Shown here one piece after another: positions 47,028 through 64,000 of a DNA stretch of 64,000 bases. Source of the DNA: Candidatus Omnitrophota bacterium (GTDB taxonomy: Bacteria > Omnitrophota > Gorgyraeia > Gorgyraeales > Gorgyraeaceae); contig DNHS01000056.1 of assembly GCA_003485765.1 (NCBI GenBank), positions 8,064 to 72,063 of the forward strand, read 5' to 3'. Position 1 is the stretch's first letter, and every line of letters starts with the position of its first letter. The notes below the pieces were generated by a model. That model had not been told where the DNA came from and searched no databases. It saw only the letters and a program-made list of their open reading frames with translations. The translations under genes and the position numbers were made by a program.

Positions 47028-47447
47028 TTAAATAATTATATTACGAGGAGGAAAAATAAAACATACCTTAAAATCTTCGTTCATCTGAGGCTGAAGCTGC
47101 GCAAGATATGGTTTATCATCTAACGTAAGCCAGGCATGGCCATATATCTTTTCACTGTCGCCTTTTACGCCTATATTAATCCTGACTTCGATGCCTTTTT
47201 CCCTCAAAAATTTATAAAGAATCAAAGATCTTTTAAGACAGGTCCCTCGCCTGCTAAAAAATGGCGCTCGCAGCTTAAAAAATAAATCAAGATATTTTGT
47301 TATCTTTGATATATTCCATTCTCTTAATTTAGGAGGCCTGCAAGGCGTCCATGATTTAAGGATTTCAGGAAGAGGTTTTATATGTATTATGACTGGCAGA
47401 ATAAAAAATAGATAAGAAACTCTTGCAAAAAGAAAAATATCTTTCAT
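47028..47447 (-). CDS. Transglutaminase-like cysteine protease, lasso-peptide B2 / McjB C-terminal-domain family (candidate leader peptidase)
   Basis: Putative Cys/His/Asp triad within CLKRSLILYKFLREKGIEVRINIGV...GHAWLTLDD. Start chosen at MKDIF (47447), forming an ATGA overlap with the GT4 stop. Confidence 0.6.
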   Translation of the reverse strand: MKDIFLFARVSYLFFILPVIIHIKPLPEILKSWTPCRPPKLREWNISKITKYLDLFFKLRAPFFSRRGTCLKRSLILYKFLREKGIEVRINIGVKGDSEKIYGHAWLTLDDKPYLAQLQPQMNEDFKVCFIFPPRNIII

Positions 47448-50817: not shown

Positions 50818-50825
50818 ACTATGTA

Positions 50826-51107
50826 TTAAGCTGTAATTTCTACCATCTTCTCTTTTATAAGTTTTTTTATCTGGCGATTTACGCTAGCGAATGCTTTATC
50901 TTTATCAACGTCATATTCATCCACTATCGCATCGGTTATTTCTCCAATAGTCTTTTTGCCATCCAAAAGCTGCCAAATCCTTACTCCCGCCTCATTAAGC
51001 CTATAAAAATACTTTGTTTCAAAATTTAAAAGAACAGCTTCTTTGTTATCCAGTTCAGTATAGATTATGGACGGCTTAACTCTTAAGCGCTGTTTGGGGT
51101 TTATCAT
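50826..51107 (-). CDS. PqqD-family protein (RiPP recognition element), copy 1
   Basis: 93 aa. Pattern L.N.T...Y.LN..G..IW.LLDG..T..EI matches PqqD/RRE. Confidence 0.7.
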   Translation of the reverse strand: MINPKQRLRVKPSIIYTELDNKEAVLLNFETKYFYRLNEAGVRIWQLLDGKKTIGEITDAIVDEYDVDKDKAFASVNRQIKKLIKEKMVEITA

Positions 51108-51372
51108 ATAAACTCAATACGCCTGTTTTTGATAACTTATTTATAAAGCTGCTGGCATCTTTTTTCGCTGTCTCATAATTAACGTCGAATTCTTTAAGTA
51201 CGGCGTCTATAATTTTATTTACCTTTGTTTTGCCATCCGCCAAATTCCATATAAAGCTTCCCATGGGATTAAGAAAGTAAAAAGCATTGTCCTTTAGATT
51301 TAAAATAACTGTTTCTCCGTCTATTATTCTACAGTGAAGCTTTTTACCAGGTAATACGTATTTGTCAAGCAC
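51076..51372 (-). CDS. PqqD-family protein (RiPP recognition element), copy 2
   Basis: 98 aa. IDGETVILNLKDNAFYFLNPMGSFIWNLADGKTKVNKII PqqD pattern. GTG start with AGGGAGG RBS. Overlaps copy 1 by 32 nt. Confidence 0.7.
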   Translation of the reverse strand: MLDKYVLPGKKLHCRIIDGETVILNLKDNAFYFLNPMGSFIWNLADGKTKVNKIIDAVLKEFDVNYETAKKDASSFINKLSKTGVLSLYDKPQTALKS

Positions 51373-51515
51373 AATGCCTCCCTTTACCTTATTGAGTATA
51401 AAATACTGCTAAGATTAAGAAATATCAAGAAAATAATTAAGTTTTCAGGTAGGATTTATTAGGAATGATGGCGTTTCTTTATCTTTTCTATAAACATCCT
51501 TTGGGTTTAATATAA

Positions 51516-51659
51516 CTAAGCGCAGGAGGTACAACTGGCGCAGCTGGAACAACTCGTGCCTACCCGATTATTCAGTTTTCCTTCTTTTTTCAACTGCGGT
51601 TCTTTAAAAAACTTTTTGTATTCTGGTTTTTGATATTGTTTTTTATTATTCTTGTCCAT
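51516..51659 (-). CDS. Candidate RiPP precursor peptide (47 aa): MDKNNKKQYQKPEYKKFFKEPQLKKEGKLNNRVGTSCSSCASCTSCA
   Basis: Not in the ORF track (<60 aa). Manual translation of the minus strand. AAGGAGGA RBS 5 nt upstream of the ATG, own promoter, Lys-rich leader, C-terminal C-x-x-C-x-x-C-x-x-C Ser/Thr-rich core. First gene of the operon. Confidence 0.6.
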   Translation of the reverse strand: MDKNNKKQYQKPEYKKFFKEPQLKKEGKLNNRVGTSCSSCASCTSCA

Positions 51660-51685
51660 ATACATCCTCCTTATCTTATATTAAT

Positions 51686-51714
51686 AGTATAAAAGATATA
51701 TTAAAATTGGTCAA
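51686..51714 (-). promoter_or_regulatory. sigma70-like promoter (TTGACC-17nt-TATACT) for the precursor operon
   Basis: Minus-strand TTGACC at 51714-51709 and TATACT at 51691-51686, about 27 nt upstream of the precursor ATG. Confidence 0.45.
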
Positions 51715-51901
51715 GTATTATCATTTTAAAAGTTTTCGAAAAAATTATAAAATTAATATTTTTCTAGTAGCTATGACCGTGATTTAAAAACTTAGAAAGC
51801 ATTTACCTTTATGATATAAATTATAGCATATAATATAACAATTGCAAGGTCATTTTTTTCTTGATTTTCAAATCTATATATAATAAGCTTATTATATAAT
51901 C

Positions 51902-53059
51902 ATGCATAACGCATTATCCAAATCCAGTCTTTTATTGAATAAAAATTCTCCTCTTCCAAGTCTAAATAACGCTGAATTAGAGATAGTCCTTAAAGAATCT
52001 TTATACCATAGCCTTACAAATCTTATCTATTTAACTATAAAAACATCGGATAGATACAAAGAATTAATTCATCATCCTGCATTTTCTCGTCTAAAAAATA
52101 GCTATTTTATGACAGTTAAGGATAATATGCTGAAACAGAAAGAGTTTATTGATATTAGCAATGCTTTTGAAACCGCTGACATACTTATGGTTCCTATCAA
52201 AGGCATGGCTTTATTATTTGATGTTTTCCAAGATAATTTAAGCCGGCCTATGGCTGATATAGATATTTTAATAAAGAAAAATGACCTGGAAAAAGCTAAA
52301 CAGCTCATGCAAGGTCTTGGCTATAAAGCAGCTCTCGGAAATTTTTCAGAAAGATATTATACTGATTATTACCATCATCTGCCTTTTTTTAAAGCATCTA
52401 TGGTAGAACTGCATTGGGATCTTGCAGTTCCAAGGCCGAATAAAATTATTTTACCTGAGTTGTGGGATAGATTGCAAAAGATTGAGCATAATAACGCCTT
52501 TTTAAACATCCTCTCTCCAGAAGACACGATATTCTCGCTTGCGCTTCATTTAAGAAGATTTAACACACCATTCTCATTAAAGCCCATATACGATATTTAT
52601 AGAATAATGGAAAAATACGATAAAGAAATAGATTGGGAGTATCTATCAAAATACAGCGGATTAAACAGGCTAAACTCTATTATCTATTACTCCCTGGTTT
52701 CTGTTAAAACAATATTTGAATATCCTATATCTGAAAAAGAACTGGGGATGTTTTACCCTGGTATATTAAGAGCGTCTTTATTAAAATTATTTATAAATAG
52801 GGTCAAGAATAGAGGCGTTACGAGACTTATAAAATCTGCTTCTTTTAGAAAATACGCCTATATATTTTTACGTTTTTTATTATATGACCGCTTGTGGGAT
52901 CTTATAAAATTCATAATACTTATACCTGAGGAAGAATTCAGCCGTTTCTATTCAATCGAATTTCCCTCAAAAGTATCATCCGCTATTTACAGTCTTAGAT
53001 TTTTGGCCATGCCTTTTCTAGCCTTATTAGACAGGTTTTCTAAAAAATCATCTATATAG
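51902..53059 (+). CDS. Nucleotidyltransferase-family protein (PF14907-like uncharacterised NTase)
   Basis: 385 aa. Pol-beta-like NTase core hinted by ...GMALLFDVF...RPMADIDILI. Divergent from the precursor operon. This family co-occurs with HprK-like kinases in lasso-type loci. Confidence 0.5.
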   Translation: MHNALSKSSLLLNKNSPLPSLNNAELEIVLKESLYHSLTNLIYLTIKTSDRYKELIHHPAFSRLKNSYFMTVKDNMLKQKEFIDISNAFETADILMVPIKGMALLFDVFQDNLSRPMADIDILIKKNDLEKAKQLMQGLGYKAALGNFSERYYTDYYHHLPFFKASMVELHWDLAVPRPNKIILPELWDRLQKIEHNNAFLNILSPEDTIFSLALHLRRFNTPFSLKPIYDIYRIMEKYDKEIDWEYLSKYSGLNRLNSIIYYSLVSVKTIFEYPISEKELGMFYPGILRASLLKLFINRVKNRGVTRLIKSASFRKYAYIFLRFLLYDRLWDLIKFIILIPEEEFSRFYSIEFPSKVSSAIYSLRFLAMPFLALLDRFSKKSSI

Positions 53060-54183
53060 TTTATAAAATTGCTCCAGTTATATTTTATTATATCTTTCCT
53101 GCCAAGGCTGCCCATTTGCATTGTCAATTCCACGTCCATAGCTATTTTACACATATAAGATGCGTATTCTCTTGCATCAGGTGAACTTAAAAATCCTGTT
53201 ATGCCATTTTTTATAATTTCCTTTGGCCCGCCGTTATTAATAGCAATAACAGGCTTAGAAAAAGAAAGCCCCTCCAGCACAGTAAGGCCAAAGTCTTCAT
53301 TCAGGGTAGTTGAGAGAACTGCGCGGCAATCTTTGTAAAGGTTCAAAATATCTTTTTCCGAAGGGTTTATCGTAATGATTATATTTTTATTCGCAGCAGC
53401 CATCTTTTTTAATTTTTCATAATAACTATTATTTGTCTTATACAGCTCTCCTGCTATTATAAGTTTAAAATTACGCAATCCTTCATGTTCCATCTGCGCT
53501 ATATTAAACGCCTCTATTGATAATTCTATATTCTTCCACCATTTTATACGCGTTGGGTGGAAGAAATAATTCTCATATCCAGTATTTCCCGAAAAATACA
53601 TTGTGTCAACGCCAAGGTTCAAAACCTTTAATTTATAATCAGGCAGAAGGTTATTTTTCAGAATCCTATCCCTGACTTCCTTGCTGATACAAAAACACAA
53701 GTCATATAATTCAAACGCCTTTTTATCTATTACCTTGAATAAAAAATAAAACAGAAAATAAAATGGGGCCTTATGTAAATTTTTTAAAACATAGTCTTTT
53801 CTCAAAACATCGTCATATATAATCTTCAATGGGGTGTAACAAATACTAATTTTAGCTATATCCTTATTTTTGAAATTTATCAGGCCTCCCAGGCCTTCGT
53901 TATGCACGCATAAAGCATCAAACCCTTCGAGAGGAAGTTTCTGATTAAAGATAACCCACGCTGACCTTAAGGTATTAAAATAACTTCTCTCTACAGAGAT
54001 CTTTTTAAATTCCGTTATCCTGGATTTAAAATCCTCAAATTCTGGGTAGGTGGTATCTTTTTCATAAAGATTGGTAAACACATGCCAATCATGTCTGGAG
54101 CGCTTCAAGACTTCAAGTATCGTACGCTCAACACCACTTCTTAAATGGATATAAGGATAATATAATGCGATTTTTAAAGACAT
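52987..54183 (-). CDS. Glycosyltransferase family 1 (GT4-type)
   Basis: 398 aa, GT4 fold (N-terminal KIALYYPYIHLRSGVER, C-terminal nucleotide-sugar-binding half). Confidence 0.7.
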   Translation of the reverse strand: MSLKIALYYPYIHLRSGVERTILEVLKRSRHDWHVFTNLYEKDTTYPEFEDFKSRITEFKKISVERSYFNTLRSAWVIFNQKLPLEGFDALCVHNEGLGGLINFKNKDIAKISICYTPLKIIYDDVLRKDYVLKNLHKAPFYFLFYFLFKVIDKKAFELYDLCFCISKEVRDRILKNNLLPDYKLKVLNLGVDTMYFSGNTGYENYFFHPTRIKWWKNIELSIEAFNIAQMEHEGLRNFKLIIAGELYKTNNSYYEKLKKMAAANKNIIITINPSEKDILNLYKDCRAVLSTTLNEDFGLTVLEGLSFSKPVIAINNGGPKEIIKNGITGFLSSPDAREYASYMCKIAMDVELTMQMGSLGRKDIIKYNWSNFINYIDDFLENLSNKARKGMAKNLRL

Positions 54184-55478
54184 TTTTTAGCGCTCAGAAG
54201 AGATAATATCCCGGTATAACTCCAAAAAATATAACTGGGAACTATCCAGTAAAGCGTATCATAGGTTAAAAATGTGCACATTATACCTGCAAGGCCTGAC
54301 AAAAAACCTATCAACAATAACCTATTATCTCTGGTTAAATTAGCCTTAAGCTTTAAGCATGAACGCTTCAAAATAGAAAAAATAAAAATAAGAAAACCTC
54401 CCAACCCTACTATCCCTGCCTCTGCTAAAATTGTTATATACATGCAATCCGCTATCTTTTGGTCATATTCTGTTATATTAGCTATAGCCGGTAAATAATG
54501 GTCAAATAAAACCCTGTAATGTCCAAAACCTATCCCAAAAAAAAGATGGTCTTTGAGTATGGCTTCAAGCGCTGAAAAACGTATAATCTTTCTTAAATAG
54601 ACCTCCCAGCTTGATAGGTATCTAAGGCTGTAACGCCAAAATGCAAAATTATTGTAGCCTAACAGCACAGAACTAACCCATACTAAAAATATACAAAATA
54701 ATATAAGCCACAGTATAAAGACTATCTTCTTCCGCCTAATAAAAAAAGAGGTCATAATGAATACGCTTGTTAATAAGCCAATAAGCGCGCCCCTGGAAAA
54801 TACCAGAATAATACAAACAGCTATCGTAACTGCATAAATAAAAGCTGCTATTTTAAAAAATCTTTTCTCCTCTTTTAAGAACAATACATATGCAAGCGGA
54901 AAGATCGCTAAAAGGTATGTCCCGAATGATATTGGATGCATATGTATAGACATCATCCTAATGCCCTTATACGTCTCATAGTATAAACTTGTTAAATATT
55001 TTTCATATATAATATTGTTTCTTGTAGAGAATTCTATTATTCCATAAAGACATAAAACAAATGCCATAAAACATACAACTCTTAATATATATTTAGTATT
55101 TTGTATTTTAAATGTGATTTTTGCAAAAAAGTATAAAAATGGTATAGGAAATATATAGCTCCAGAAATGCCTATACATAGTAACCGACTCCACTGCATTC
55201 ACAATACCTGCCATTAAAGCCGCTAAAAATATCCAGAAAGGTATTTCTTCCCTGGAAAATATAAGCTTATACAATTGTCTGTCAATAAAAAGCAAAACTG
55301 AAAGAAAAATAATTAACACAACAAAAAACCAAAAGCGACAAGATTCATTAACAATCGGAGCGAAAAACGATATCCATAAAAACAAAGCTATTACTCCTGT
55401 TAACTTAAAATTATTTATTACTTTATCCATAATATATTGCGGCTGTAAGAATGCTATGATGAATCGCTTTTTAAGCAT
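54174..55478 (-). CDS. O-antigen ligase / Wzy-like polytopic membrane protein
   Basis: 434 aa with more than 10 predicted TM helices and a periplasmic loop. Sits in a glycosyltransferase cluster. Confidence 0.55.
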   Translation of the reverse strand: MLKKRFIIAFLQPQYIMDKVINNFKLTGVIALFLWISFFAPIVNESCRFWFFVVLIIFLSVLLFIDRQLYKLIFSREEIPFWIFLAALMAGIVNAVESVTMYRHFWSYIFPIPFLYFFAKITFKIQNTKYILRVVCFMAFVLCLYGIIEFSTRNNIIYEKYLTSLYYETYKGIRMMSIHMHPISFGTYLLAIFPLAYVLFLKEEKRFFKIAAFIYAVTIAVCIILVFSRGALIGLLTSVFIMTSFFIRRKKIVFILWLILFCIFLVWVSSVLLGYNNFAFWRYSLRYLSSWEVYLRKIIRFSALEAILKDHLFFGIGFGHYRVLFDHYLPAIANITEYDQKIADCMYITILAEAGIVGLGGFLIFIFSILKRSCLKLKANLTRDNRLLLIGFLSGLAGIMCTFLTYDTLYWIVPSYIFWSYTGILSLLSAKKCL

Positions 55479-55488
55479 CTTTTTTGAG

Positions 55489-56466
55489 CTAGCTATCCTT
55501 ATGCTTTATTTCTTCTACTAACGACATCTTCTTTGTAAATATTGCAGGTAAATATAATGAAGCGCCTAAAAATATTCCCAACAACTCCGCCATTCTTATG
55601 ATCGGGGAATATAAAATCCAGCTCAATTTATAAGATAAGTTTCTTTTTAAATGCGATATATATATCATATCTTTTATCGACTTAAAAATAAAAATCAAAG
55701 GAAGCTTTAATAATGCTGAAAAAGTCCATCGCTTAAGCAACAAATGATTTAATCTTGCATCATCAAAATATCTCTTCATTGTTCCAATAAAAGACTTGTG
55801 TAAATCATGAGAATGAATAACCTCTGAACTAGACTCAAATATGATCTTATACCCTTTTTCTAACATTCGTTGTGACCATTCTAAGTCTTCGCCAAATTCA
55901 ATATCTGCGAATGGATTTTTCAACAGCAGATCTTTTTTAATTGCGCAACTAATTGTATGAAATGATATAAATCTCCTTTTTTCTTCCACGTCTTTATTTT
56001 TATATTCCGCAAATGTCTTAATATGCTTTATTCTCTCGCTAAAAATACGATCATTGCGTAAGATGTCCAGTACGCCCAATGGGTTGCAATCTTGTCTAGG
56101 ACATAATCTGCTGCACACTCCGGCAACATCTTCGTATATTAAAAATGGCCTGATTAAATTATTTAACCAATGCTTATCTTTTGGCGTTGCGTCTCCATTT
56201 AAAAATACCAAATATTCACCCTTGCTTAAACACATGCCTAAATTTCGAGTTTTGCCATGCCCGAATTCTTCTGGAGAAATTTGAATCAAAACAACAGGAT
56301 ATTTTCTTATTATTTCTAAAACTCTACTGTTAGAACCAGAATCGATTATTATCACTTCAAAACCACAGCTTATCTCCTGGCAAAAAACAGCCTTAAGCGT
56401 TTCTTCAATCATATTTTCCTGGTTTTTAGTTAAAATTACTATAGAGATTTTTATGATATTATTCAT
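55489..56466 (-). CDS. Glycosyltransferase family 2
   Basis: 325 aa. ISIVILTKNQE...IIIDSGSNS... and DxD-type motif (LNGDAT). Confidence 0.75.
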   Translation of the reverse strand: MNNIIKISIVILTKNQENMIEETLKAVFCQEISCGFEVIIIDSGSNSRVLEIIRKYPVVLIQISPEEFGHGKTRNLGMCLSKGEYLVFLNGDATPKDKHWLNNLIRPFLIYEDVAGVCSRLCPRQDCNPLGVLDILRNDRIFSERIKHIKTFAEYKNKDVEEKRRFISFHTISCAIKKDLLLKNPFADIEFGEDLEWSQRMLEKGYKIIFESSSEVIHSHDLHKSFIGTMKRYFDDARLNHLLLKRWTFSALLKLPLIFIFKSIKDMIYISHLKRNLSYKLSWILYSPIIRMAELLGIFLGASLYLPAIFTKKMSLVEEIKHKDS

Positions 56467-57527
56467 GCTATGCGCGAGGTAGGCATAAGCTCTTTTACTG
56501 ACTCGACTACCTTTTCCATAGATATCTTATCCATACAGGTTTGTTTCTTATCGCATTTATTCTTATAACATGGGGCGCACTTTGCTTCTGTGATTATTTT
56601 AGAGCCTAGATTATATAAATCTATTTCCTGAGCACAGGTAGGGCCAAAAAGCGCAACAACCGGTTTTTTAAGCGCTATTGCCATGTGCATTGCAAGCGTA
56701 TCGGCTGCTATAATCAGCCCGCAATTATTAATCAATGCAGTGAATTCCTTAAGGCTATTGTCGCATCCGCTATCAATTACTTTACCATCCATTGCTTTTC
56801 TAATATATTTATGGATATCCTTTTCAAAAGGCCCTCCAAGTAATATTATTTTCACATTTAATTCTTTACACAATAACTCTATTAGACTAACTAACCTATT
56901 TTTTCCTAAGTTCTTATTTGCAAAAACCCTGCCTGCCCCTGTATTGATGCCAATAACAATATCGTCTTTATCTAACCCGTTCTTCTTGAAAAAACTGTCT
57001 GCAAAATCAATATGTTTTTTATCTAACTTTAATTCATAAGGATTGTTTTGATAGTTAAGTTTTGCTGTTTCAAATATTAGCTCCTGATAGGTCTTTTTAT
57101 TTTTAAAAAATTTTAACTCATCATCTATGCCTAACAGATAAGAATAACTCGCTTCCTTATTCAAAGGGCATAACTTGCCTTTTTTATCCAAGCCAAAGCC
57201 ATATTTTTCAGAAGCCCTGACAGACATAGCCAGAGAAGCTGCTTCAATAGCCTTATCTAAAGATATAACAATATCGAACTCTTCTCCGTTTAGCAGTAAA
57301 ACGCTCTTTTTGCTATAAACCAAAATCCGGTTTATGCTATCATTGCCTTCTAAAAGTTCCAGCGCTAACTCTTCGACAATCCATGTTATATGACTATATG
57401 GATATTTTTTCTTTAATCCAGATAAAAGCGTAGTTGTCCTTAAAACATCTCCTGCTGAAGCTAATTTGATAATTAAAATCTTTTTACTATTACAAGAAAT
57501 TGACATGTTCTCTAGGCTGTTTAACAT
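56463..57527 (-). CDS. Glycosyltransferase family 9 (LPS heptosyltransferase-like)
   Basis: 354 aa. KILIIKLASAGDVLRTTTLL... is the GT9 N-terminus. C-terminal GPTCAQEI... region. Confidence 0.75.
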   Translation of the reverse strand: MLNSLENMSISCNSKKILIIKLASAGDVLRTTTLLSGLKKKYPYSHITWIVEELALELLEGNDSINRILVYSKKSVLLLNGEEFDIVISLDKAIEAASLAMSVRASEKYGFGLDKKGKLCPLNKEASYSYLLGIDDELKFFKNKKTYQELIFETAKLNYQNNPYELKLDKKHIDFADSFFKKNGLDKDDIVIGINTGAGRVFANKNLGKNRLVSLIELLCKELNVKIILLGGPFEKDIHKYIRKAMDGKVIDSGCDNSLKEFTALINNCGLIIAADTLAMHMAIALKKPVVALFGPTCAQEIDLYNLGSKIITEAKCAPCYKNKCDKKQTCMDKISMEKVVESVKELMPTSRIA

Positions 57528-58563
57528 TCCAAAGTATCTGATTAAATGTATTATCTCTGCACAATGGTATGCAATTGCGAAAATCTATCCTATTTATAGC
57601 TTTAACCCTTTCTTCGGAATTCCAGATATACTTAAAACTTTTCTTTTTAAGGTCCCCTATGCAATATTTATTATAACCCCTAGTGTGGCAGCATATATAC
57701 ATCTTTCCCGTAGCGGATATCACAGTGGCAAACTGCTGGCCGTAACATTTCTTATAATACCTTCCAAACTTAGAGTCATGTGCCATCTCGTATTTATGCT
57801 GGGAATACAAAACCTTGAATTTGTTGCCTGAATATTTAAGGCAATTTACTATCTCATCCTGGACATCTGCCCAATAATACCTGAACTTTCCTCCGTTATG
57901 GATCTGCATAGGCCTGAATTGCAGATAATCAACACCTAATCTATCTGCTAGCAGCGTTGCCTTCATCATATCCGGTTTTGTATAATCACTAGTTAAGAAA
58001 CCTATTCCTACATTGCATAAACTTTTTATTTTTTTCTTTATTTTTACCAATAAAGCTATATTTTTTATGATTTTATTAAACTCGTTTCCATCAAGGCCAT
58101 GCGTCAGTTTAAATACTCCGGGCGATCCTGCATCCAAAGATACCCTCAGCCATGTGCAGTTATTTAAAAGAACGCTCGATGACTTATGGTCTAATAATGA
58201 CCCGTTCGTTATGAAACCCACGTCAAGGCCCTTTGAGCGGGCAAGCTTAACCATGTCCAGCGTGCAGGGATTGCATAAGGGCTCTCCGCCTCCTGTAAAT
58301 ATTAATCCTTTTATTTTGTTTTTTGCAAGCTGCAAGATAATTTTTTTAGCAAGTCTGGGGGTAAGAAAACTTCTATCATTGATTCTGAAATAATTTACAA
58401 CGCACTCCTGGCATCTATGATTACATATATTTGTCATATCCAATTCTACTGTGATTGGAGGCGTATTCTTTCCATTCAACCAATCATTTACCCTATCTAA
58501 GTGCTTCAATATCTTGTCGGAGCTAAACTGCCTCACATCAATCTGTCTTAAATCCATGCCCAC
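57490..58563 (-). CDS. Radical SAM protein with C-terminal Cys-rich (SPASM/twitch-like) region, embedded in the glycan locus
   Basis: 357 aa. CNHRCQEC (CxxxCxxC), GGGEP motif, C-terminal CC...C...C..C cysteines. Confidence 0.7.
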   Translation of the reverse strand: MGMDLRQIDVRQFSSDKILKHLDRVNDWLNGKNTPPITVELDMTNICNHRCQECVVNYFRINDRSFLTPRLAKKIILQLAKNKIKGLIFTGGGEPLCNPCTLDMVKLARSKGLDVGFITNGSLLDHKSSSVLLNNCTWLRVSLDAGSPGVFKLTHGLDGNEFNKIIKNIALLVKIKKKIKSLCNVGIGFLTSDYTKPDMMKATLLADRLGVDYLQFRPMQIHNGGKFRYYWADVQDEIVNCLKYSGNKFKVLYSQHKYEMAHDSKFGRYYKKCYGQQFATVISATGKMYICCHTRGYNKYCIGDLKKKSFKYIWNSEERVKAINRIDFRNCIPLCRDNTFNQILWNVKQPREHVNFL

Positions 58564-58775: not shown

Positions 58776-61700
58776 TTACCTTCTAAAGGTTAAATTCTCA
58801 GATTGTTCTGAAGCTAAGACCTCTATAGCAGCTTTATCTCCGTGCAAAGCCAGGGCCTTACCAATAATAGGGAATACAGTGCAAACTAGCCAGCATGAAC
58901 ACTTACCAGAATCTATAAAATCTCTTACCTCACAAGCCTTGTTAGAATCCCATATATAGTCCATCTTATTATCTCTTATATTTCCTATTGTTTTTTCTTT
59001 TAAAAGCGGGCAGAAAAACATATTTCCATAAGGATCGAGCATTACAAATTTAAATCCGGCATTGCAATCATAAGCAAATCTGCTTTTTGTCTTTTGGAAA
59101 TCTACAAGATGGGACCAGTAATATATTTTAGTGAAAAGATTTATTTTACCCCTCACCGTAGACATATTATTATAAAAATCCTCCGGGCTAGAAACCTTTC
59201 TGATAATGCGTTCCAGTATTTGCCCGATATGGCCCTCTATTCTTTCAAGATCTTTATTGCTCCATTTAAATACCTCGCTTTGCCTGGACTCTTTTGGCAC
59301 CCCAAACTGGGCAAAAAAATCAATGCCATTTTTATCAGCAAATTCCCAGCAAGGCACCAGCTGATCCGTATTAAAAGGCGTCAAAACAAAAGTAAGACTA
59401 AAACGCACTTCCGGAAGCTCTTTCTTAAAGAATTCTAATGTTTTCACAAAACCGCTGAATCCGCCATCAACGCCCCTTATCTTGTCGTAAGCATCTCCAA
59501 GCCCATCAAGAGAGCTTCCTATCCATATAGCATTTGTTTTGATCTTTTTAAGAATCTGCTTCATTTTCGAAACTATGACTTCTGTATTTATGCCATTTGT
59601 AAGAATTCCTAAAGATGCTTGCGGCAGCGTATCTTTTATCGCAAAACATATATCTACAAAATCAGGCCTAAGAAAGGGTTCTCCTCCGGACAGGACAACG
59701 GTCTTTATGCCCTTTAACGCATTTGAACCTGATAAAAGTTTCTTGATATCATCTAGAGAAATTTCATCTTTTACGCTTTTGCCTGTTCTTTTATGAATGT
59801 CCCAGATATCGCATGTAATGCACTTGCTGTTGCATAAATGAGTAAGTTCGACATGCAATTCTTCCGGTTTCATATTAATATCCTTAGAATATTCTTTATT
59901 CAAATAATCAAGAGACAGTTTTATAATATCGTCTGTTTTTTTAACAATATCTTTCATGATGCTATCTGAAGACGGTAAACGCTTATCCGCGCCAACAGGC
60001 TTGATAACAGAACCTTCGGGCCTTATTGCAATTCTATCTATTTCCATAACATCAGCGTAAATGTTGTCTAATTTTTGGACTACCTTATTCCAGTCATATT
60101 TTTCCTCTACAAGAAGTCTTGCTTGCCTGGCTATTCTTTTATACAATGCGTCATTATTGAAAAGCTCTGTTACATATCTTGCAAAATCTTTGGGTTTGTC
60201 AGATATTAAAATATTAAAGCCGTTTTCCGCATCTATCCCGCAAGAGCCTCGCGTTGTAGATACAACAGGTGTCCCTGTAGCCATAGCTTCCAATATCTTG
60301 CCCTTTATCCCTGCGCCTACCCTGGAAGCGCATACGAACAGAGAGGCATTATGAAGATATGGCTTAACGTCAGGCACATCACCTATGACTTCTACGCCTT
60401 TGATGCTTGAAAGCCTCAGCACATTTTCAGTAGGTCCTGACCCTACAAGCTTAACAGTTGCTTCCGGGATTAATTTTTTTATCAAAGGAAAGATTTTACG
60501 GCAGAAATATACAGCTGCTTCCTCATTTGGATAATGAGGGTAGTGTCCGACAAATATCAGAGATTTATCTCTACCTGTCTTATCTTTAAATTCAAAATGC
60601 TCGATATCTACTCCTGTAGGCACATAAGAAAAGTCTGAATTAGGAGAAAATACCCTGACTACGCGCATATCTTCTTTTGATAAAACAATTATTTTATCGA
60701 GATTTTTATAAAAAGAGTTGTGGCTATGTACGATTTTCATGTAATCTATTATACCCGGTAAAACATATCTCGTATTTTTTTTATAATAAGACTTATGCGG
60801 CGACAGTATGCTGATATCGTGCTCGGTATATACGATGGGAATATGCTTGACAAATCTGGTAAGGTACAAAAGCTCGTTTGATTCTATGTGGGCAAGATCT
60901 ATGGAAAGCCTGCCTTGAATTTCATTTAATTTCTCTATTAAGAAACTGCTGAACGAATGCCTGTAGCGGTTTGGAAATAAAAATTCATTAACCTTAGTTT
61001 GCCTATCTATTAAATGTATTTCTTTGAAAATATCTTTCATGGAATTAGACTTAGCGTATTCTGAATCTTTTTCATGATGCGCGAGAGACAGGAGCACTAT
61101 ATCGTAGTTTTTAGACAGGCGCTTGTATAAGTTATACATCCTTATCTTCCCTCCGCTATTAAGCGGATATGGTATAAAAGGCGTTATTAAAAGAACTGTC
61201 TTCTTATCAGAATGTACAAAGTTATTGCGCATAAAATTCCTGTAGTAAAGCAAGCTTCTGTCTAAAACCCTCTTATCTTTTACTTCAGCATATCTGAATT
61301 CCTTAAACCTATTAACTAAAGCAGGTATTATATAATTTAATGCCCAGACATACCCTATTAAAAATGTTAACCTTGTGCTATGGCGCCCTTTTAATAAAAA
61401 TTTTGGCAAATTATTAAAGTGGCTTAAGACCATGTTATTATCCCTTAGATTCTTCCACATAAACAACAGTTCATTCTTTATTTCTTTATGCCTTACATAA
61501 TTCAGCGTGGCCGCGCCTTTATGATACATTATGCTGTTCGGTTCATATAAAACTTTCAATCCTCTTTTTTGCGCCCTGTATGAAACATCTATATCCTCCC
61601 AGCAATTAGGCCTGTATATGTCGTCAAAACCCCCCATCCATAAAAAATCTTTCTTGCGGAAACACATTGCGCCTCCTACAGCGAAAACTGTAGGGGAAGT

Positions 61701-63722
61701 CTGCGATACCTTATCGCTATTGCCTGTCTCAGCCTCATTCCACAGATTAAGATAGCCATCCTTAAATTTCCCCATATGCATTCCATAATTAAAACTCTTC
61801 ATGTCCCAATAATAAAGCTTCGGAGATACAGCAAATACTTCTGGATCTTTAAAATGCGCTTTCAGAGGGTCCAGGAATCCCCTTGAGACCATAATATCAT
61901 TATTTAATAAAACTATGAGTTCCCCTTTAGCTTCTCTGACGCCTCTATTGCATGTTTTCCCAAATCCCTGGTTGCCCCTATTTCTGATTACTCTAACCTT
62001 AGGAAAATCATCTTTGATGACCATAGCTATACTCTGGCTGCTGGCATCATCTACCACTAAAATCTCATATCCGTCTTCCTTAAAGCCATCCGCTTCACAT
62101 AAAGAAGACAGGCATTTTTTAAGAAAATTCAGGCCATTCCAATTAGGTATAACTACACTTACAGTTAAATTATCAAAATGCACTATTTCTCTTTTTTTTC
62201 TAAAATAACGCGATAATTTTCCAAAAAATAATTCCAAAGATACCTCTAAAGTAAAAAGCAGAGCATGAGCTAATAATATCGGGCTTATAAAAAAAATCAT
62301 GGCTGTCCAGACAAGAACAGCCGCCTTTTTTGCTGCATACTTTAATGTAGCCCGCATATGCCACATAATCTTCCATAGCGGGCTCAATATAAACCTATAT
62401 CCTTCGGAATTATATATGCCTAATAATTGTTTCCGAGCCTCATCTAGTTTACTTGTAACATTATTTAGCTGGCTAGTTTTATCTAGTATAATATCATCTT
62501 TAGCAGTTCCTTCATCTAGACTTATCTTCAATTTATCTGTCAGCTTAGATATTTCTTCTTTGTAAGCGCCAAGCTCTTCTTTAATGGCAAGTACTTCTTC
62601 GGAAAGCTGCTTTATTTTGTGTTCTTTTTCCTGAATGATATTCTCTTTGTCATGTAAATTACTAGATAAACTAGATATTTGCTTTTTATCTAATTCTATA
62701 TCTTTTTGATATTTTTCCTCCTGCATTTTACACCAATTTCTATCTTTTTTTGTTCCTATTAAATCGTCCAAAAGACTTTTTAATTCCATTTCCATCTTTT
62801 TATTTTCATAATTTGTAATATTTTTAAGCTCTTCGAATAAATCTTTTATTATGCCATCGCTTATTAATCGGCCGTGTTCTTTGAGCAATTTCAGGAATAC
62901 TTGCGCCGTTAAATCAAAAAATCTGCCGCTATTTAAATTATCTTTGTTTGCAATAAAATAACTATTCCCGATTAACGACTTTGCAAGCTTGTCCGGATAA
63001 TGTTTAGCTATGAACAATAACCTATTCTTTTCTATTGCTTCGCGCGAAAATTCTTCATTACAGCTTCCATGTTTTTTATGATAAGCTACGCTTGAGGGAG
63101 CAAATATAAGCCTCCAGCCTTTTTTTCTAAATCTAATAGACATATCCACATCTTCTCCAAACATCAAAAAATCTTCATCAAATAAGCCTATGTCTCGTAA
63201 TGCTGATTTTCTGTAAAGAACGCTTGCCCCGCACACAGCCTCTAGATCTGTCACGTAGTTGAATTCCTTTGGTTTTTTGCCAGCGCCCCTCTCGTCCCAA
63301 TAAAAATTAGGCAGTTCATACAGGCCTGCATTCTGAATAAGCCCGCTCTTCTCCAGCAGCATGCTAGACACGGCGCCTACAGATCTGTCTTTTTCTATCG
63401 GTTTAACCAGTTCTGAAAGCCAGCCTTTTTTAACCACAACATCATTATTCAATAAAACGACGTAGCTTCCTCTTGACTCTAAAATACCAAGATTACATGC
63501 CTGGCAGTAATTATTCTGCCTATTTTCTATGACCTTCACCTTTTTATACTTATGTTTGATAAATTTTACAGAATCGTCCGTAGAGGCATTATCAACAACT
63601 ATGATTTCTAGCCTTGCTTTAGGATACCCTGTTTTCCATAACGAATCCAAGCATCTTTTTATAAGCTTCTTATTATTAAAATGCACGATAACTATGCTGA
63701 CAAAAGGGCTTTTAATGGCCAT
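58776..63722 (-). CDS. Giant 1648-aa multidomain protein: GT2 - coiled coil - GT2 - GT1(GT4) - radical SAM/SPASM-like
   Basis: Two GT2 N-terminal signatures (VSIVIVHFNN...VVDNASTDDS; VSVVIPNWNG...VVDDASSQS), a heptad-rich segment around aa 300-420, a GT4 region (VLLITPFIPYPLNSGG), and a C-terminal CNSKCITC radical-SAM motif followed by Cys-rich C-terminus. Confidence 0.75.
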   Translation of the reverse strand: MAIKSPFVSIVIVHFNNKKLIKRCLDSLWKTGYPKARLEIIVVDNASTDDSVKFIKHKYKKVKVIENRQNNYCQACNLGILESRGSYVVLLNNDVVVKKGWLSELVKPIEKDRSVGAVSSMLLEKSGLIQNAGLYELPNFYWDERGAGKKPKEFNYVTDLEAVCGASVLYRKSALRDIGLFDEDFLMFGEDVDMSIRFRKKGWRLIFAPSSVAYHKKHGSCNEEFSREAIEKNRLLFIAKHYPDKLAKSLIGNSYFIANKDNLNSGRFFDLTAQVFLKLLKEHGRLISDGIIKDLFEELKNITNYENKKMEMELKSLLDDLIGTKKDRNWCKMQEEKYQKDIELDKKQISSLSSNLHDKENIIQEKEHKIKQLSEEVLAIKEELGAYKEEISKLTDKLKISLDEGTAKDDIILDKTSQLNNVTSKLDEARKQLLGIYNSEGYRFILSPLWKIMWHMRATLKYAAKKAAVLVWTAMIFFISPILLAHALLFTLEVSLELFFGKLSRYFRKKREIVHFDNLTVSVVIPNWNGLNFLKKCLSSLCEADGFKEDGYEILVVDDASSQSIAMVIKDDFPKVRVIRNRGNQGFGKTCNRGVREAKGELIVLLNNDIMVSRGFLDPLKAHFKDPEVFAVSPKLYYWDMKSFNYGMHMGKFKDGYLNLWNEAETGNSDKVSQTSPTVFAVGGAMCFRKKDFLWMGGFDDIYRPNCWEDIDVSYRAQKRGLKVLYEPNSIMYHKGAATLNYVRHKEIKNELLFMWKNLRDNNMVLSHFNNLPKFLLKGRHSTRLTFLIGYVWALNYIIPALVNRFKEFRYAEVKDKRVLDRSLLYYRNFMRNNFVHSDKKTVLLITPFIPYPLNSGGKIRMYNLYKRLSKNYDIVLLSLAHHEKDSEYAKSNSMKDIFKEIHLIDRQTKVNEFLFPNRYRHSFSSFLIEKLNEIQGRLSIDLAHIESNELLYLTRFVKHIPIVYTEHDISILSPHKSYYKKNTRYVLPGIIDYMKIVHSHNSFYKNLDKIIVLSKEDMRVVRVFSPNSDFSYVPTGVDIEHFEFKDKTGRDKSLIFVGHYPHYPNEEAAVYFCRKIFPLIKKLIPEATVKLVGSGPTENVLRLSSIKGVEVIGDVPDVKPYLHNASLFVCASRVGAGIKGKILEAMATGTPVVSTTRGSCGIDAENGFNILISDKPKDFARYVTELFNNDALYKRIARQARLLVEEKYDWNKVVQKLDNIYADVMEIDRIAIRPEGSVIKPVGADKRLPSSDSIMKDIVKKTDDIIKLSLDYLNKEYSKDINMKPEELHVELTHLCNSKCITCDIWDIHKRTGKSVKDEISLDDIKKLLSGSNALKGIKTVVLSGGEPFLRPDFVDICFAIKDTLPQASLGILTNGINTEVIVSKMKQILKKIKTNAIWIGSSLDGLGDAYDKIRGVDGGFSGFVKTLEFFKKELPEVRFSLTFVLTPFNTDQLVPCWEFADKNGIDFFAQFGVPKESRQSEVFKWSNKDLERIEGHIGQILERIIRKVSSPEDFYNNMSTVRGKINLFTKIYYWSHLVDFQKTKSRFAYDCNAGFKFVMLDPYGNMFFCPLLKEKTIGNIRDNKMDYIWDSNKACEVRDFIDSGKCSCWLVCTVFPIIGKALALHGDKAAIEVLASEQSENLTFRR

Positions 63723-63860
63723 TAGGACTTCCTCCTTTTGAAATGAGCCAATCCCAGCTATGTTCTAAATACACTGCGCCATGATATTGTCCATGCAGTT
63801 TTCAATAATTTTCTCTGTTGTAATTTACAATAATTACTGATATTATAGTCTTATTATATC

Positions 63861-64000
63861 ATGGAAAATAAAAATTCTAAAGCGTTATCATCCCTTATTT
63901 TCATTCCCTTATTATCCCTGCTTTTTATCAGGCCTTTTGTTTCAGGGCTTTCATACCCTGTATTTGAATTCTGGTATGAAATTTTAATAACCCTCCTTGG
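63861..64000 (+). CDS. Hypothetical membrane protein, N-terminal fragment (runs off window)
   Basis: ATG at 63861 followed by a hydrophobic ORF (MENKNSKALSSLIFIPLLSLLFIRPFVSGL...) that stays open to the window end. Confidence 0.3.
   Translation, partial: MENKNSKALSSLIFIPLLSLLFIRPFVSGLSYPVFEFWYEILITLL

What the first reader, a model, noticed from the sequence alone, without database searches (positions are those of the whole stretch)
58776..63722. Giant 1648-aa GT2-GT2-GT4-radical SAM fusion protein terminating a glycan locus
A single ORF concatenates two family-2 glycosyltransferase domains separated by an approximately 120-aa coiled-coil, a family-1 (GT4) domain, and a C-terminal radical-SAM domain (CNSKCITC) with additional Cys-rich motifs. 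It follows a stand-alone paralogous radical SAM (57490-58563) and GT9/GT2/Wzy-like/GT4 genes. Fusion of three sugar transferases to a radical SAM enzyme is unusual and implies a processive assembly line that also does radical chemistry on the glycan or its acceptor. Given the neighbouring RiPP-like operon, a link to peptide glycosylation is conceivable.
Basis: partly seen in the sequence, partly recalled or inferred. Interest (0 to 1): 0.65.

Follow-up and report, generated by a model that had tools for sequence, protein, structure and literature searches.

The report
Ruler-bearing glycan synthase with radical-SAM domain
This giant gene is real and conserved in the uncultivated phylum Omnitrophota, and it looks like a one-protein surface-polysaccharide factory of the known "polymerase plus chain-stopper on a coiled-coil ruler" type, with the new feature that a radical-SAM enzyme is welded onto it.

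Summary
An intact 1648-aa ORF lies at 58776-63722 on the minus strand. Its order is GT2, a helical stalk of about 140 aa, a hydrophobic anchor, GT2, GT4, and a radical-SAM domain with one auxiliary Fe-S site.

It is not a chimera. About 32 full-length homologues from independent Omnitrophota assemblies share the order and keep every catalytic motif.

In relatives the gene usually sits directly after wzm-wzt (9 of 10 full fusions; 46 of 53 genes that begin with this GT2). The stalk varies from about 140 to 800 aa through tandem repeats whose periods are multiples of seven. This is the architecture of ABC-transporter-dependent O-polysaccharide polymerase/terminators such as WbbB, WbdD and Klebsiella O7 ORF6, although there is no sequence homology to them.

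The radical-SAM module is the new element. It is optional and shuffled among relatives, has no peptide-recognition (RRE) domain, and its stand-alone relatives also sit in glycan loci beside GT4 genes. It is therefore probably a glycan-tailoring step of unknown chemistry.

- The gene lies inside a locus of about 45 kb, not at its end.
- wzm-wzt lie about 11 kb upstream, outside the window.
- The neighbouring radical SAM is only a distant paralogue.

The 1648-aa length is probably an assembly collapse of a 75-bp repeat (0, 2 or 4 copies in otherwise identical assemblies). The suggested RiPP link is not supported.

The parts
58776..63722 (-). Whole ORF, 1648 aa: GT2a, coiled coil, membrane anchor, GT2b, GT4, radical SAM/Twitch
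   Evidence: about 32 full-length homologues
63731..63737 (-). Shine-Dalgarno AAGGAGG, 8 nt before the ATG at 63722
   Evidence: read directly from the sequence
63853..63881 (-). Promoter-like site TTTAGA-17-TATAAT with TG (10 of 12). This is a consensus match only; the region holds no more such sites than shuffled sequence.
62943..63722 (-). GT2a module (aa 1-260), GT-A fold. Conserved D44, D94, D182-E183-D184, E190-D191-D193 and the ERNRLL..AKH motif (aa 231-241). By its position at the far end of the coiled coil it is the candidate chain terminator.
62403..62837 (-). Helical stalk / coiled coil (aa ~296-440), the candidate molecular ruler
   Evidence: heptad score; AF2 long helices; length varies 141-799 aa in the family through repeats with periods that are multiples of 7
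62629..62653 (-). 25-bp junction (GACAAAGAGAATATCATTCAGGA...) where otherwise identical assemblies carry 2 (L001) or 4 (L082) extra copies of a 75-bp / 25-aa repeat, DKENIIQDSKRRIEELSSQLSTLHN. This is a probable collapse point.
62223..62333 (-). Hydrophobic segment, aa 464-500 (AKKAAVLVWTAMIFFISPILLAHALLFTLEVSLELFF), with a central Ser-Pro and invariant E493. Candidate re-entrant or hairpin membrane anchor at the base of the stalk.
   Evidence: Kyte-Doolittle maximum 2.32; conserved 'TMlink' HMM, 102 bits; invariant W450 and E493
61203..62177 (-). GT2b module (aa 516-840). Conserved D558-D559, N607-N608-D609, E709-D710-D712. Candidate polymerase module.
60033..61202 (-). GT4 (GT-B) module (aa 841-1230). 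Conserved E967-H968-D969, G1138, K1142, E1145. Candidate polymerase module. Best NCBIfam hit is TIGR03087, 192 bits (below cut-off).
58803..59885 (-). Radical SAM domain rSAM1 (aa 1280-1640): partial TIM barrel, a ~60-aa helical insert, then a Twitch/SPASM-like domain
   Evidence: Pfam; AF2 pLDDT 90.1; Foldseek and PDB hits
59811..59834 (-). CX3CX2C radical-SAM cluster motif CNSKCITC (C1297, C1301, C1304), invariant in 33 of 33 family members. The SAM-binding GGEP motif (aa 1346-1349) is also invariant.
58881..59066 (-). Auxiliary-cluster cysteines C1553, C1571, C1608, C1610 (with C1614), i.e. one auxiliary Fe-S site
   Evidence: 97-100% conserved in 74 homologues of the domain
57490..58563 (-). 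Stand-alone radical SAM/SPASM (357 aa) in the position where relatives carry the fused or adjacent second radical-SAM domain. Here it is a distant lineage (57 bits to the tail HMM).
52987..57527 (-). Downstream genes of the same strand block: GT9 (56463-57527, overlapping the radical SAM gene by 38 nt), GT2 (55489-56466), Wzy_C ligase/polymerase-like protein with 10 TM-like segments (54174-55478), GT4 (52987-54183)

Best explanation
The gene encodes the central synthase of an ABC-transporter-dependent surface glycan (O-polysaccharide-like) pathway of an Omnitrophota bacterium close to 'Omnitrophica bacterium GWA2_41_15'. [quoted passage not shown] The hydrophobic segment (aa 464-500) anchors the protein. 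The membrane-proximal GT2b and GT4 modules extend the chain. The N-terminal GT2a sits at the far end of a coiled-coil stalk and adds a terminal residue only to chains long enough to reach it, so the stalk length sets the chain length. The capped chain is recognised by the carbohydrate-binding domain of Wzt, exported by Wzm/Wzt, and ligated outside by a Wzy_C-type ligase. The fused radical-SAM/Twitch domain is an accessory tailoring module that travels with the GT4 module. It performs an as yet unknown radical reaction (for example oxidation, epimerisation or deoxygenation) on the nascent glycan or on the sugar donor. What is shown: the domain order, conservation of the catalytic motifs, the folds, the wzm-wzt linkage, stalk-length variation through heptad-multiple repeats, and fusion/fission of the modules. 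What is inferred by analogy: the terminator role of GT2a, the ruler function, and the substrate of the radical-SAM domain.
For: (1) Architecture: GT-A, long helices, hydrophobic segment, GT-A, GT-B, radical SAM. (2) Linkage to the transporter: in 77 genome loci, 46 of 53 genes that start with GT2a and have at least 2.5 kb of upstream sequence abut wzt, and so do 9 of 10 full fusions. Wzt carries Wzt_C (PF14524) in L002-L004, L082 and L083. (3) In the window's own lineage, wzm and wzt (with two Wzt_C stretches), a PF00953 initiating transferase and a second GT2a-coiled-coil protein lie 11-18 kb upstream of the giant gene, within ~19 kb of continuous glycan genes, in DNA 100% identical to the window. 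(4) The stalk is the only hypervariable part: the region between query residues 250 and 460 holds 196-854 aa. It varies through tandem repeats of period 14, 21, 35 (nine members), 42, 49, 56, 63, 70 and 77, and by 0, 2 or 4 copies of a 25-aa unit within one population. (5) The published paradigm states that an extended coiled coil is the marker of this assembly strategy, with the terminator at the distal end and the polymerase GT modules at the C-terminus (PMC11231755). (6) Modules are redistributed in relatives exactly as in the Klebsiella systems: [GT2a-CC-anchor] + [GT4] + [rSAM1] as separate genes (L061, L065, L067, L072); [GT2a-CC-anchor-rSAM1] (L050, L059, L074); [GT4-rSAM1] (L053); and versions without radical SAM (L028, P0038-P0045). 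(7) The second radical-SAM domain is fused in 17 of 32 homologues, and in 8 short-form loci it is encoded by the very next gene (52-58% identity, 510-529 bits). This fusion/fission indicates one functional unit. (8) The radical-SAM domain is under constraint: CX3CX2C and GGEP are invariant. (9) Stand-alone relatives of rSAM1 in other phyla lie next to GT4 genes, an ABC-2 transporter or a Wzx flippase. (10) No Wzx flippase homologue is present in the window.
Against: There is no sequence homology to WbbB or WbdD: a PDB sequence search with aa 1-520 returned only generic GT-A enzymes, so the ruler and terminator roles rest on architecture and context alone. In this lineage the gene does not abut wzt. 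About 11 kb of other glycan genes, including another GT2a-coiled-coil protein and two Wzy_C genes, intervene, so the giant protein could serve a second polymer or another export route. AF2 models the stalk as a monomer with breaks and only moderate confidence (pLDDT 50-70), so an antiparallel fold-back cannot be excluded. The repeat unit of this lineage is 25 aa, which is not a multiple of 7. The nearest solved structures to rSAM1 include RiPP maturases (SkfB, SuiB, CteB) as well as sugar and nucleotide enzymes (BlsE, DesII, BtrN, viperin, MoaA), all at TM-scores of only 0.4-0.6, so the fold does not reveal the substrate class. No glycan structure is known for any Omnitrophota.
Confidence: 0.62

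Rival explanations
1. The same pathway, but the radical-SAM domain or domains rather than GT2a create the chain-terminating cap that Wzt recognises. GT2a would then be an adaptor or third polymerase module.
For: Known terminators are often non-GT modifying enzymes, such as the SAM-dependent methyltransferase/kinase pairs of WbdD and O7 ORF6. The loci are packed with radical SAM, B12-radical SAM and methyltransferase genes. Some relatives join rSAM1 directly to the GT2a-CC-anchor unit without any polymerase GTs (L050, L059, L074).
Against: [quoted passage not shown] Here rSAM1 is on the membrane-proximal side, after the anchor and the GTs. rSAM1 is preferentially fused or adjacent to GT4, not to the stalk (L053, L061, L065, L067, L072, L085, L086). 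Versions of the synthase without radical SAM still keep GT2a and the coiled coil (L028; P0038-P0045).
Confidence: 0.15
2. A dual- or triple-GT co-polymerase (chondroitin-polymerase-like) in which the coiled coil only mediates oligomerisation or scaffolding. Chain length is not measured, and GT2a takes part in elongation.
For: GT2a and GT2b are paralogues (they cross-hit at 128-141 bits), and both hit chondroitin synthase K4CP domains in the PDB. AF2 does not give one continuous stalk helix.
Against: An oligomerisation domain has no reason to vary six-fold in length through in-register heptad-multiple duplications while everything else stays conserved. Stand-alone [GT2a-CC-anchor] proteins directly after wzt (L061, L072 and others, and the 509-aa protein in L082) mirror the stand-alone terminators WbdD and O4 ORF7. 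The presence of Wzt_C implies recognition of a terminal cap.
Confidence: 0.13
3. One reading: the fusion glycosylates and radically modifies a ribosomal peptide (RiPP) made by the neighbouring PqqD/radical SAM cassette.
For: A 49-aa ORF with a C-terminal Cys repeat (51516-51665), two PqqD genes, a radical SAM/SPASM, an HprK-like kinase, a lasso-B2-like protease, and GT4 and GT2 genes lie 7-12 kb downstream. NTP_transf_5 plus PqqD recur in 5 other loci. The GT2 modules' best NCBIfam hit is MftF (203 bits, below the 280 cut-off). The top structural neighbour of rSAM1 is the RiPP maturase SkfB.
Against: rSAM1 lacks an RRE/PqqD domain: its alignments to SkfB, CteB and SuiB start after their RRE domains. 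The precursor-like peptide is found only in this lineage among 86 loci, whereas the fusion family is phylum-wide and tied to wzm-wzt. The RiPP cassette has its own radical SAM and its own GTs. Stand-alone rSAM1 relatives sit in polysaccharide loci without PqqD.
Confidence: 0.05
4. An assembly or annotation artefact: separate genes joined by a mis-assembly or by a missed stop or frameshift.
For: The window's assembly differs from two otherwise identical assemblies by a collapsed or variable 75-bp tandem repeat inside the gene.
Against: The same uninterrupted domain order is found in about 32 proteins from independent assemblies, sources and continents at 33-64% identity, with conserved inter-domain linkers. 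The repeat indels are in frame and confined to the coiled coil. One relative (L026) shows what a real split looks like.
Confidence: 0.02

Closest known systems
WbbB of Klebsiella pneumoniae O12 / Raoultella terrigena (a single protein integrating polymerisation, termination and chain-length control; described in PMC11231755 and its ref. 29)
   Same: One polypeptide with an N-terminal terminating glycosyltransferase, an extended coiled coil and two C-terminal polymerase GT modules. It is encoded with wzm-wzt, and Wzt carries a carbohydrate-binding domain.
   Different: The WbbB terminator is a GT99 beta-Kdo transferase, whereas here it is a GT2 (GT-A) module. No sequence homology was detected. 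The Omnitrophota protein has a hydrophobic hairpin-like anchor between the stalk and the polymerase, plus one or two radical-SAM domains, which no characterised system has.
Klebsiella pneumoniae O7 ORF6 and E. coli O9a / K. pneumoniae O3 WbdD-WbdA
   Same: The terminator module is separated from the GT2 or GT4 polymerase modules by a coiled-coil ruler. Modules are distributed variably over one or several proteins. The split Omnitrophota loci ([GT2a-CC-anchor] + GT4 + ...) parallel WbdD + WbdA.
   Different: Those terminators are SAM-dependent methyltransferase/kinase pairs that use polar chemistry. Here the SAM-using module is a radical enzyme on the polymerase side of the stalk, and the stalk length ranges far more widely (about 140-800 aa).
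Twitch/SPASM radical SAM enzymes: SkfB, BtrN, BlsE, DesII, anSME, CteB, SuiB
   Same: CX3CX2C and GGE motifs, a partial TIM barrel, and a C-terminal beta-hairpin/helix domain with Cys ligands for an auxiliary cluster. Profile E-values are 1.8e-30 to SkfB and 4.8e-13 to BtrN; Foldseek E is 6.6e-12 to SkfB and 6.4e-11 to BlsE.
   Different: Only 12-22% identity in the Foldseek alignments and TM-scores of 0.4-0.6. There is no RRE domain. There is a ~60-aa four-helix insert before the Twitch domain. It is fused to a glycosyltransferase. All NCBIfam equivalog scores are far below their cut-offs (best 66.7 against 500), so it belongs to no curated functional family.
GT-plus-radical-SAM pairings already catalogued without known function (for example NCBIfam TIGR04157 'glyco_rSAM_CFB'; co-occurrence of PF00534 and PF04055 in long Omnitrophota proteins noted in bioRxiv 10.64898/2026.06.07.730766)
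   Same: Recurrent genomic coupling of GT4-type transferases with radical SAM/SPASM proteins in glycan loci.
   Different: Those are statistical or annotation-level notes. Neither describes this architecture, the wzm-wzt linkage or the ruler-like stalk. The window's proteins score only 32 bits against TIGR04157 (cut-off 400).

Membership tests
ABC-transporter-dependent glycan polymerase/terminator with coiled-coil ruler (WbbB / WbdD / O7-ORF6 type) | Encoded with wzm-wzt, where Wzt carries a C-terminal carbohydrate-binding domain | tested here: met
   46 of 53 GT2a-leading genes and 9 of 10 full fusions abut wzt. Wzt_C (PF14524) is present. In the window's lineage wzm-wzt lie ~11-13 kb upstream, outside the window, in 100%-identical DNA.
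ABC-transporter-dependent glycan polymerase/terminator with coiled-coil ruler (WbbB / WbdD / O7-ORF6 type) | An extended coiled coil separates a distal catalytic module from the membrane-proximal region | tested here: met
   Heptad score; AF2 helices 307-437 followed by the hydrophobic helix 440-504; repeat periods that are multiples of 7; length variation of 141-799 aa. The oligomeric state was not tested.
ABC-transporter-dependent glycan polymerase/terminator with coiled-coil ruler (WbbB / WbdD / O7-ORF6 type) | The distal module is the chain terminator, and the coiled-coil length sets the modal chain length | not testable with these tools
   This needs the glycan structure and engineered stalk variants. 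Here it is a positional analogy only.
ABC-transporter-dependent glycan polymerase/terminator with coiled-coil ruler (WbbB / WbdD / O7-ORF6 type) | Polymerase GT modules are in the same protein or complex, and an initiating polyprenol-phosphate transferase is in the locus | tested here: met
   GT2b and GT4 have intact motifs. A PF00953 transferase is present in L082 and L002.
ABC-transporter-dependent glycan polymerase/terminator with coiled-coil ruler (WbbB / WbdD / O7-ORF6 type) | Sequence homology to WbbB or WbdD | tested here: not met
   phmmer of aa 1-520 against all PDB chains (which, from my own knowledge, include WbdD and WbbB fragments) returned only generic GT-A enzymes. The claim is therefore 'works like', not 'is a homologue of'.
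Radical SAM superfamily | CX3CX2C cluster motif, GGE SAM-binding motif, and a partial TIM-barrel fold | tested here: met
   C1297, C1301, C1304 and G1346-P1349 are invariant. Pfam 64.9 bits against a cut-off of 29.5. AF2 pLDDT 90.1 with Foldseek probability 1.0 to many radical SAM structures.
SPASM subfamily (two auxiliary clusters, seven-Cys motif) | Seven conserved cysteines, CX9-15GX4C ... CX2CX5CX3C ... C | tested here: not met
   Only C1553, C1571, C1608 and C1610 are conserved (with C1614 in 78-85%). This is CX17C (containing GX4C) followed by CXCX3C, i.e. ligands for one cluster, which is Twitch-like. The Pfam SPASM model still scores 26.5 bits against a cut-off of 21.5.
RiPP-maturing radical SAM (sactipeptide / ranthipeptide / PqqE type) | An RRE (PqqD-like) domain or a dedicated partner, plus a cognate precursor peptide | tested here: not met
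   There is no RRE in the fusion or in the 320-390-aa stand-alone relatives: alignments to SkfB, CteB and SuiB start after their RREs. The nearby PqqD genes and the Cys-repeat peptide belong to a separate cassette with its own radical SAM, and the peptide is lineage-specific.
Any curated NCBIfam equivalog (MftF, stp1, EpsD, PgaC, NirJ, MoaA and others) | A score at or above the curated cut-off | tested here: not met
   All hits are below their cut-offs: MftF 203.7 against 280, stp1 192.5 against 316, NirJ2 66.7 against 500.

The most novel reading that the evidence does not exclude
Omnitrophota, and some Elusimicrobia, Desulfobacterota and archaeal MAGs, build a class of surface polysaccharide whose backbone is tailored during synthesis by radical chemistry. 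Radical-SAM/Twitch modules are physically coupled to the polymerase GT4 module, helped by the many B12-radical SAM and double radical-SAM proteins in the same loci. Together they would introduce modifications not known in any bacterial O-antigen, such as radical epimerisation, C-methylation, deoxygenation or C-C/ether cross-links. Chain length would be tuned rapidly, even within populations, by expansion and contraction of heptad-multiple repeats in the coiled-coil ruler.
Probability: 0.35. Interest if true: 0.78.

Novelty: new variant of a known kind. Interest (0 to 1): 0.56.

Why it matters
Coiled-coil rulers in ABC-transporter-dependent glycan assembly have so far been studied mostly in Proteobacteria. 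This family extends the principle to an uncultivated phylum of ultra-small bacteria. It also offers a natural series of stalks of 140-800 aa, built from exact repeats, on which the ruler hypothesis can be tested directly.

The radical-SAM module fused to a polysaccharide polymerase, and loci with up to seven consecutive radical-SAM genes, point to glycan chemistry that has not been described. These are candidate enzymes for site-selective radical modification of oligosaccharides.

In practice the result also shows that the gene length in short-read assemblies of this locus is unreliable, and that the current annotation 'glycosyltransferase' hides a multi-enzyme machine.

Tried and rejected
- wzm-wzt in the window. 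I searched the window and L001 with tblastn and HMMs and found none. I therefore walked upstream through the B12-radical SAM protein and found wzm-wzt 11-13 kb upstream of the giant gene.
- Exact look-up of the window's protein in the contig collection. It is not on record, because that copy-number variant is absent there.
- Tandem Repeats Finder on the gene. It found nothing relevant, because the window carries zero full copies of the repeat. The repeat only became visible by comparing assemblies.
- The idea that the adjacent radical SAM (57490-58563) is the split-off orthologue of the fused second radical-SAM domain. I rejected this for the window (57 bits, 22% identity), although it holds for eight other loci.
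- The fold and sequence neighbours of rSAM1 do not discriminate between peptide and sugar substrates.
- The GT2a fold search gave only generic GT-A hits (ppGalNAc-T, TarS), so donor and acceptor cannot be assigned.
- Literature searches for radical SAM together with Wzm/Wzt, O-antigen, or fused glycosyltransferase found nothing pertinent. One 2026 preprint only notes that GT1 and radical SAM Pfams co-occur in long Omnitrophota proteins.
- A Wzx flippase search was negative.
- A search for the Cys-repeat precursor peptide in the other loci was negative.
Full report
1. The observation.

The ORF exists exactly as stated. It spans 58776..63722 with an ATG start, encodes 1648 aa and has no internal stops, but it lies on the minus strand. 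A perfect Shine-Dalgarno sequence (AAGGAGG, 63731-63737) precedes the ATG.

Pfam finds the following:
- two Glycos_transf_2 domains (aa 9-178 and about 519-741);
- a GT4-type GT-B module (aa 857-1222);
- Radical_SAM (aa 1292-1453, 64.9 bits);
- SPASM (aa 1553-1610, 26.5 bits).

All NCBIfam hits are below their curated cut-offs, so no curated functional family applies.

Between the first GT2 and the second lie two features. One is a proline-poor, charged stretch with a strong heptad signal (aa ~296-440). The other is a 37-residue hydrophobic segment (aa 464-500). AlphaFold2 models aa 8-215 as a GT-A fold followed by long helices at 307-321, 325-352, 360-437 and 440-504.

Because of the strand, however, the giant gene is transcribed first and the radical SAM, GT9, GT2, Wzy_C and GT4 genes follow it.

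2. It is not an artefact, but its length is uncertain.

A search of 5.8 billion proteins found about 32 full-length proteins with the same domain order. They are 1532-2677 aa long and 33-64% identical to the query (one near-identical strain variant is treated below), and those that carry a source name are labelled Candidatus Omnitrophota. A scan of GTDB species genomes gave 77 loci, again almost all Omnitrophota.

In an alignment of 26 members, the catalytic residues of all four enzyme modules are invariant or nearly so:
- GT2a: D44, D94, D182-E183-D184, E190-D191-D193;
- GT2b: D558-D559, N607-N608-D609, E709-D710-D712;
- GT4: E967-H968-D969, K1142, E1145;
- radical SAM: C1297, C1301, C1304 and G1346-G1347-E1348-P1349.

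The fusion is therefore real and under selection.

The window DNA is 100.000% identical (0 mismatches over 13.9 kb plus 1.4 kb) to two other assemblies of the same groundwater population, L001 and L082. The only difference is that those assemblies carry 2 and 4 extra copies of a 75-bp unit at aa 357/358. The unit encodes the 25-aa repeat DKENIIQDSKRRIEELSSQLSTLHN, giving proteins of 1698 and 1748 aa. Three assemblies that differ only in tandem-repeat copy number most simply indicate that short-read assembly collapsed the repeat. A real polymorphism is not excluded. Either way, 1648 aa should be read as a minimum.

3. The context gives the function.

In three relatives examined through their called genes, the giant gene starts immediately after wzm (ABC2_membrane) and wzt (ABC_tran + Wzt_C). 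With home-made HMMs for each module applied to all ORFs of 82 sequences, the pattern generalises. Of the GT2a-leading genes that have at least 2.5 kb of upstream sequence, 46 of 53 abut wzt, and so do 9 of 10 full fusions.

The window itself holds no wzm or wzt. I therefore walked upstream through the B12-radical SAM protein of L001, which is 100% identical to a protein that NCBI names 'Omnitrophica bacterium GWA2_41_15'. In L082 the locus continues upstream of the giant gene in this order:
- GT4;
- a PF00953 (WecA/MraY-type) initiating transferase;
- an amine-oxidase-like flavoprotein;
- a carbamoyltransferase;
- SxtJ;
- wzm;
- wzt, with two Wzt_C stretches;
- a 509-aa GT2a-coiled-coil paralogue;
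- a B12-radical SAM;
- a GT4-radical SAM/SPASM fusion;
- GT4;
- GT2;
- two Wzy_C genes;
- an 80-aa ORF;
- the giant gene.

The gene therefore sits in the middle of a glycan locus of about 45 kb that ends at rpsO/pnp (46110/45756). No Wzx flippase homologue is present. This points to ABC-transporter export, with the Wzy_C proteins as candidate ligases.

4. The coiled coil behaves like a ruler.

Across 32 homologues everything aligns without large gaps except the stalk. The stretch between query residues 250 and 460 holds 196-854 residues. The stalk grows through internal tandem duplications. Their periods are 14, 21, 35 (nine members), 42, 49, 56, 63, 70 and 77 residues, all multiples of seven. 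This is direct evidence both for heptad structure and for selection on length rather than on sequence.

The published paradigm (PMC11231755) states three things about ABC-transporter-dependent O-polysaccharide assembly. An extended coiled coil is the characteristic marker. The terminator always sits at the distal end. The polymerase GT modules sit at the membrane-proximal, C-terminal end, either in the same protein (WbbB of serotype O12; ORF6 of O7) or in partner proteins (WbdD/WbdA; O4).

The Omnitrophota protein matches this plan: GT2a (distal), stalk, hydrophobic anchor, then GT2b and GT4 (proximal). Relatives also show the same kind of module redistribution:
- [GT2a-CC-anchor, ~615 aa] + [GT4] + [rSAM1] as separate genes (L061, L065, L067, L072);
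- [GT2a-CC-anchor] + [GT4-rSAM1] (L053);
- [GT2a-CC-anchor-rSAM1] (L050, L059, L074);
- versions without radical SAM (L028).

There is no detectable sequence homology to WbbB or WbdD. The statement is therefore that it works like them, not that it is a member of their families. The terminator role of GT2a and the ruler function are inferences.

5. The radical-SAM part.

The model of aa 1262-1648, built from 74 homologues, is confident (pLDDT 90.1). It shows a partial TIM barrel, a ~60-aa helical insert, and a beta-hairpin/helix domain.

Foldseek and a profile search of the PDB give SkfB, BlsE, SuiB, CteB, anSME, MoaA, viperin, DesII, PqqE and BtrN as neighbours, at TM-scores of 0.4-0.6. This confirms the fold but not the substrate.

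Conserved cysteines beyond the CX3CX2C motif are C1553, C1571, C1608 and C1610, with C1614 in 78-85% of sequences. That is enough for one auxiliary cluster, as in the Twitch enzymes BtrN and SkfB, and not for the seven-Cys SPASM set. No RRE domain precedes the radical-SAM core: the alignments to SkfB, CteB and SuiB begin after their RRE domains.

Seventeen of 32 homologues carry a second radical SAM/SPASM domain of about 340-370 aa at the C-terminus, and all 17 have CX3CX2C. In eight short-form loci the very next gene encodes its orthologue (52-58% identity, 510-529 bits). This is a clean fusion/fission pair.

The window's downstream radical SAM (57490-58563) occupies that position but is a distant lineage. 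It scores 57 bits against the tail HMM, is 22% identical, and is about 20% identical to rSAM1. Its true orthologue is in L058, next to a GT9 gene.

Stand-alone relatives of rSAM1 in an Elusimicrobia MAG, in a JGI contig and in an 'archaeon' MAG all lie beside GT4 genes, an ABC-2 transporter or a Wzx flippase.

Four observations together suggest an accessory glycan-tailoring module of unknown chemistry: the optional presence, the preference for GT4 as a neighbour, the absence of an RRE, and the glycan context. I hold this with moderate confidence.

6. The RiPP idea.

Downstream (46126-53059) lies a cassette consisting of:
- two PqqD proteins;
- a radical SAM/SPASM (best NCBIfam hit is the ACGX-system maturase, below cut-off);
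- an HprK-like protein;
- a lasso-B2-like transglutaminase;
- GT4 and GT2;
- a divergent NTP_transf_5 gene.

A 49-aa ORF ending in GTSCSSCASCTSCA lies directly upstream of the first PqqD gene. This is a credible RiPP cassette in its own right. However, the peptide occurs only in this lineage among 86 loci, the cassette has its own radical SAM and its own GTs, and the giant-gene family is conserved without it. NTP_transf_5 plus PqqD do recur in five other Omnitrophota glycan loci. That recurrence is unexplained and worth a separate look.

7. Novelty and verdict.

No paper on this architecture was found. A 2026 preprint only records that GT1 and radical SAM Pfams co-occur in long Omnitrophota proteins.

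The finding is a new variant of a known kind. It is a WbbB/O7-ORF6-like polymerase/terminator/ruler protein, with a GT2 at the distal (candidate terminator) position, unusually plastic repeat-built stalks, and fused radical-SAM modules, which is unprecedented.

Interest is moderate to high (0.56). The mechanism of assembly is largely explained by a known paradigm. The radical chemistry on a nascent polysaccharide and the natural series of ruler lengths are new and testable.

Noticed in passing
window 51516-51665 (-), with 46126-53059: A 49-aa ORF, MYMDKNNKKQYQKPEYKKFFKEPQLKKEGKLNNRVGTSCSSCASCTSCA, has a Cys at every third residue of its C-terminus. It lies directly upstream of two PqqD genes, a radical SAM/SPASM (ACGX-like, below cut-off), an HprK-like protein, GT4, a lasso-B2-like transglutaminase and GT2, with a divergent NTP_transf_5 gene. 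This is a candidate RiPP precursor plus maturation cassette. The peptide was found only in this lineage among 86 loci.
   Followed up: partly
L028, L038, L061, L072, L074 (for example L061 16562-20839): Wzy_C, NTP_transf_5 and a PqqD-family gene recur together downstream of the glycan genes in other Omnitrophota loci. The PqqD/nucleotidyltransferase set therefore seems to be a regular component of these polysaccharide loci. Its role is unknown.
   Followed up: partly
window 62629-62653; L001 about 11070-11220; L082 about 20515-20815: Three assemblies with 100.000% identical flanks carry 0, 2 and 4 copies of a 75-bp repeat in the coiled coil. This is either short-read collapse or real copy-number polymorphism. 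The unit is 25 aa, not a multiple of 7, unlike the repeats in other family members.
   Followed up: yes
L002 16649-26054; L003 15588-25583; L004 18042-28034: The relatives' loci are followed by runs of radical-SAM genes (seven in a row in L002). They include 750-970-aa B12-binding radical SAM proteins, double radical-SAM proteins and Methyltransf_24 genes. This is an unusual density of radical enzymes for a glycan locus.
   Followed up: partly
L082 8451-9980 and 12255-14696 (upstream of the window's end, in identical DNA): A second, 509-aa GT2a-coiled-coil paralogue lies directly after wzt, and there is a separate 813-aa GT4-radical SAM/SPASM fusion. The lineage thus has two stalk-bearing GT2 proteins and two GT-radical SAM fusions in one locus. 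L028 also has two stalk proteins.
   Followed up: partly
P0130; P0241: A 238-aa fragment 100% identical to the radical-SAM domain is deposited as 'Parcubacteria group bacterium GW2011_GWC2_38_7', whereas the flanking gene is deposited as 'Omnitrophica bacterium GWA2_41_15'. This is probably a mis-binned contig. Several family loci are likewise labelled Planctomycetia, Patescibacteria, Nanoarchaeota or 'archaeon'.
   Followed up: no
L082 1407-5933; L002 3604-7057: Upstream of wzm there is a conserved set: a PF00953 initiating transferase plus an amine-oxidase/NAD_binding_8 flavoprotein. L002 adds a polyprenyl synthase, and L082 adds a carbamoyltransferase and SxtJ. This hints at a dedicated lipid carrier and at carbamoylated sugars.
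   Followed up: no
window 42871-46110 (-): The glycan super-locus ends at housekeeping genes: rpsO (45844-46110), pnp (43678-45756) and undecaprenyl-diphosphatase BacA (42871-43650).
   Followed up: no
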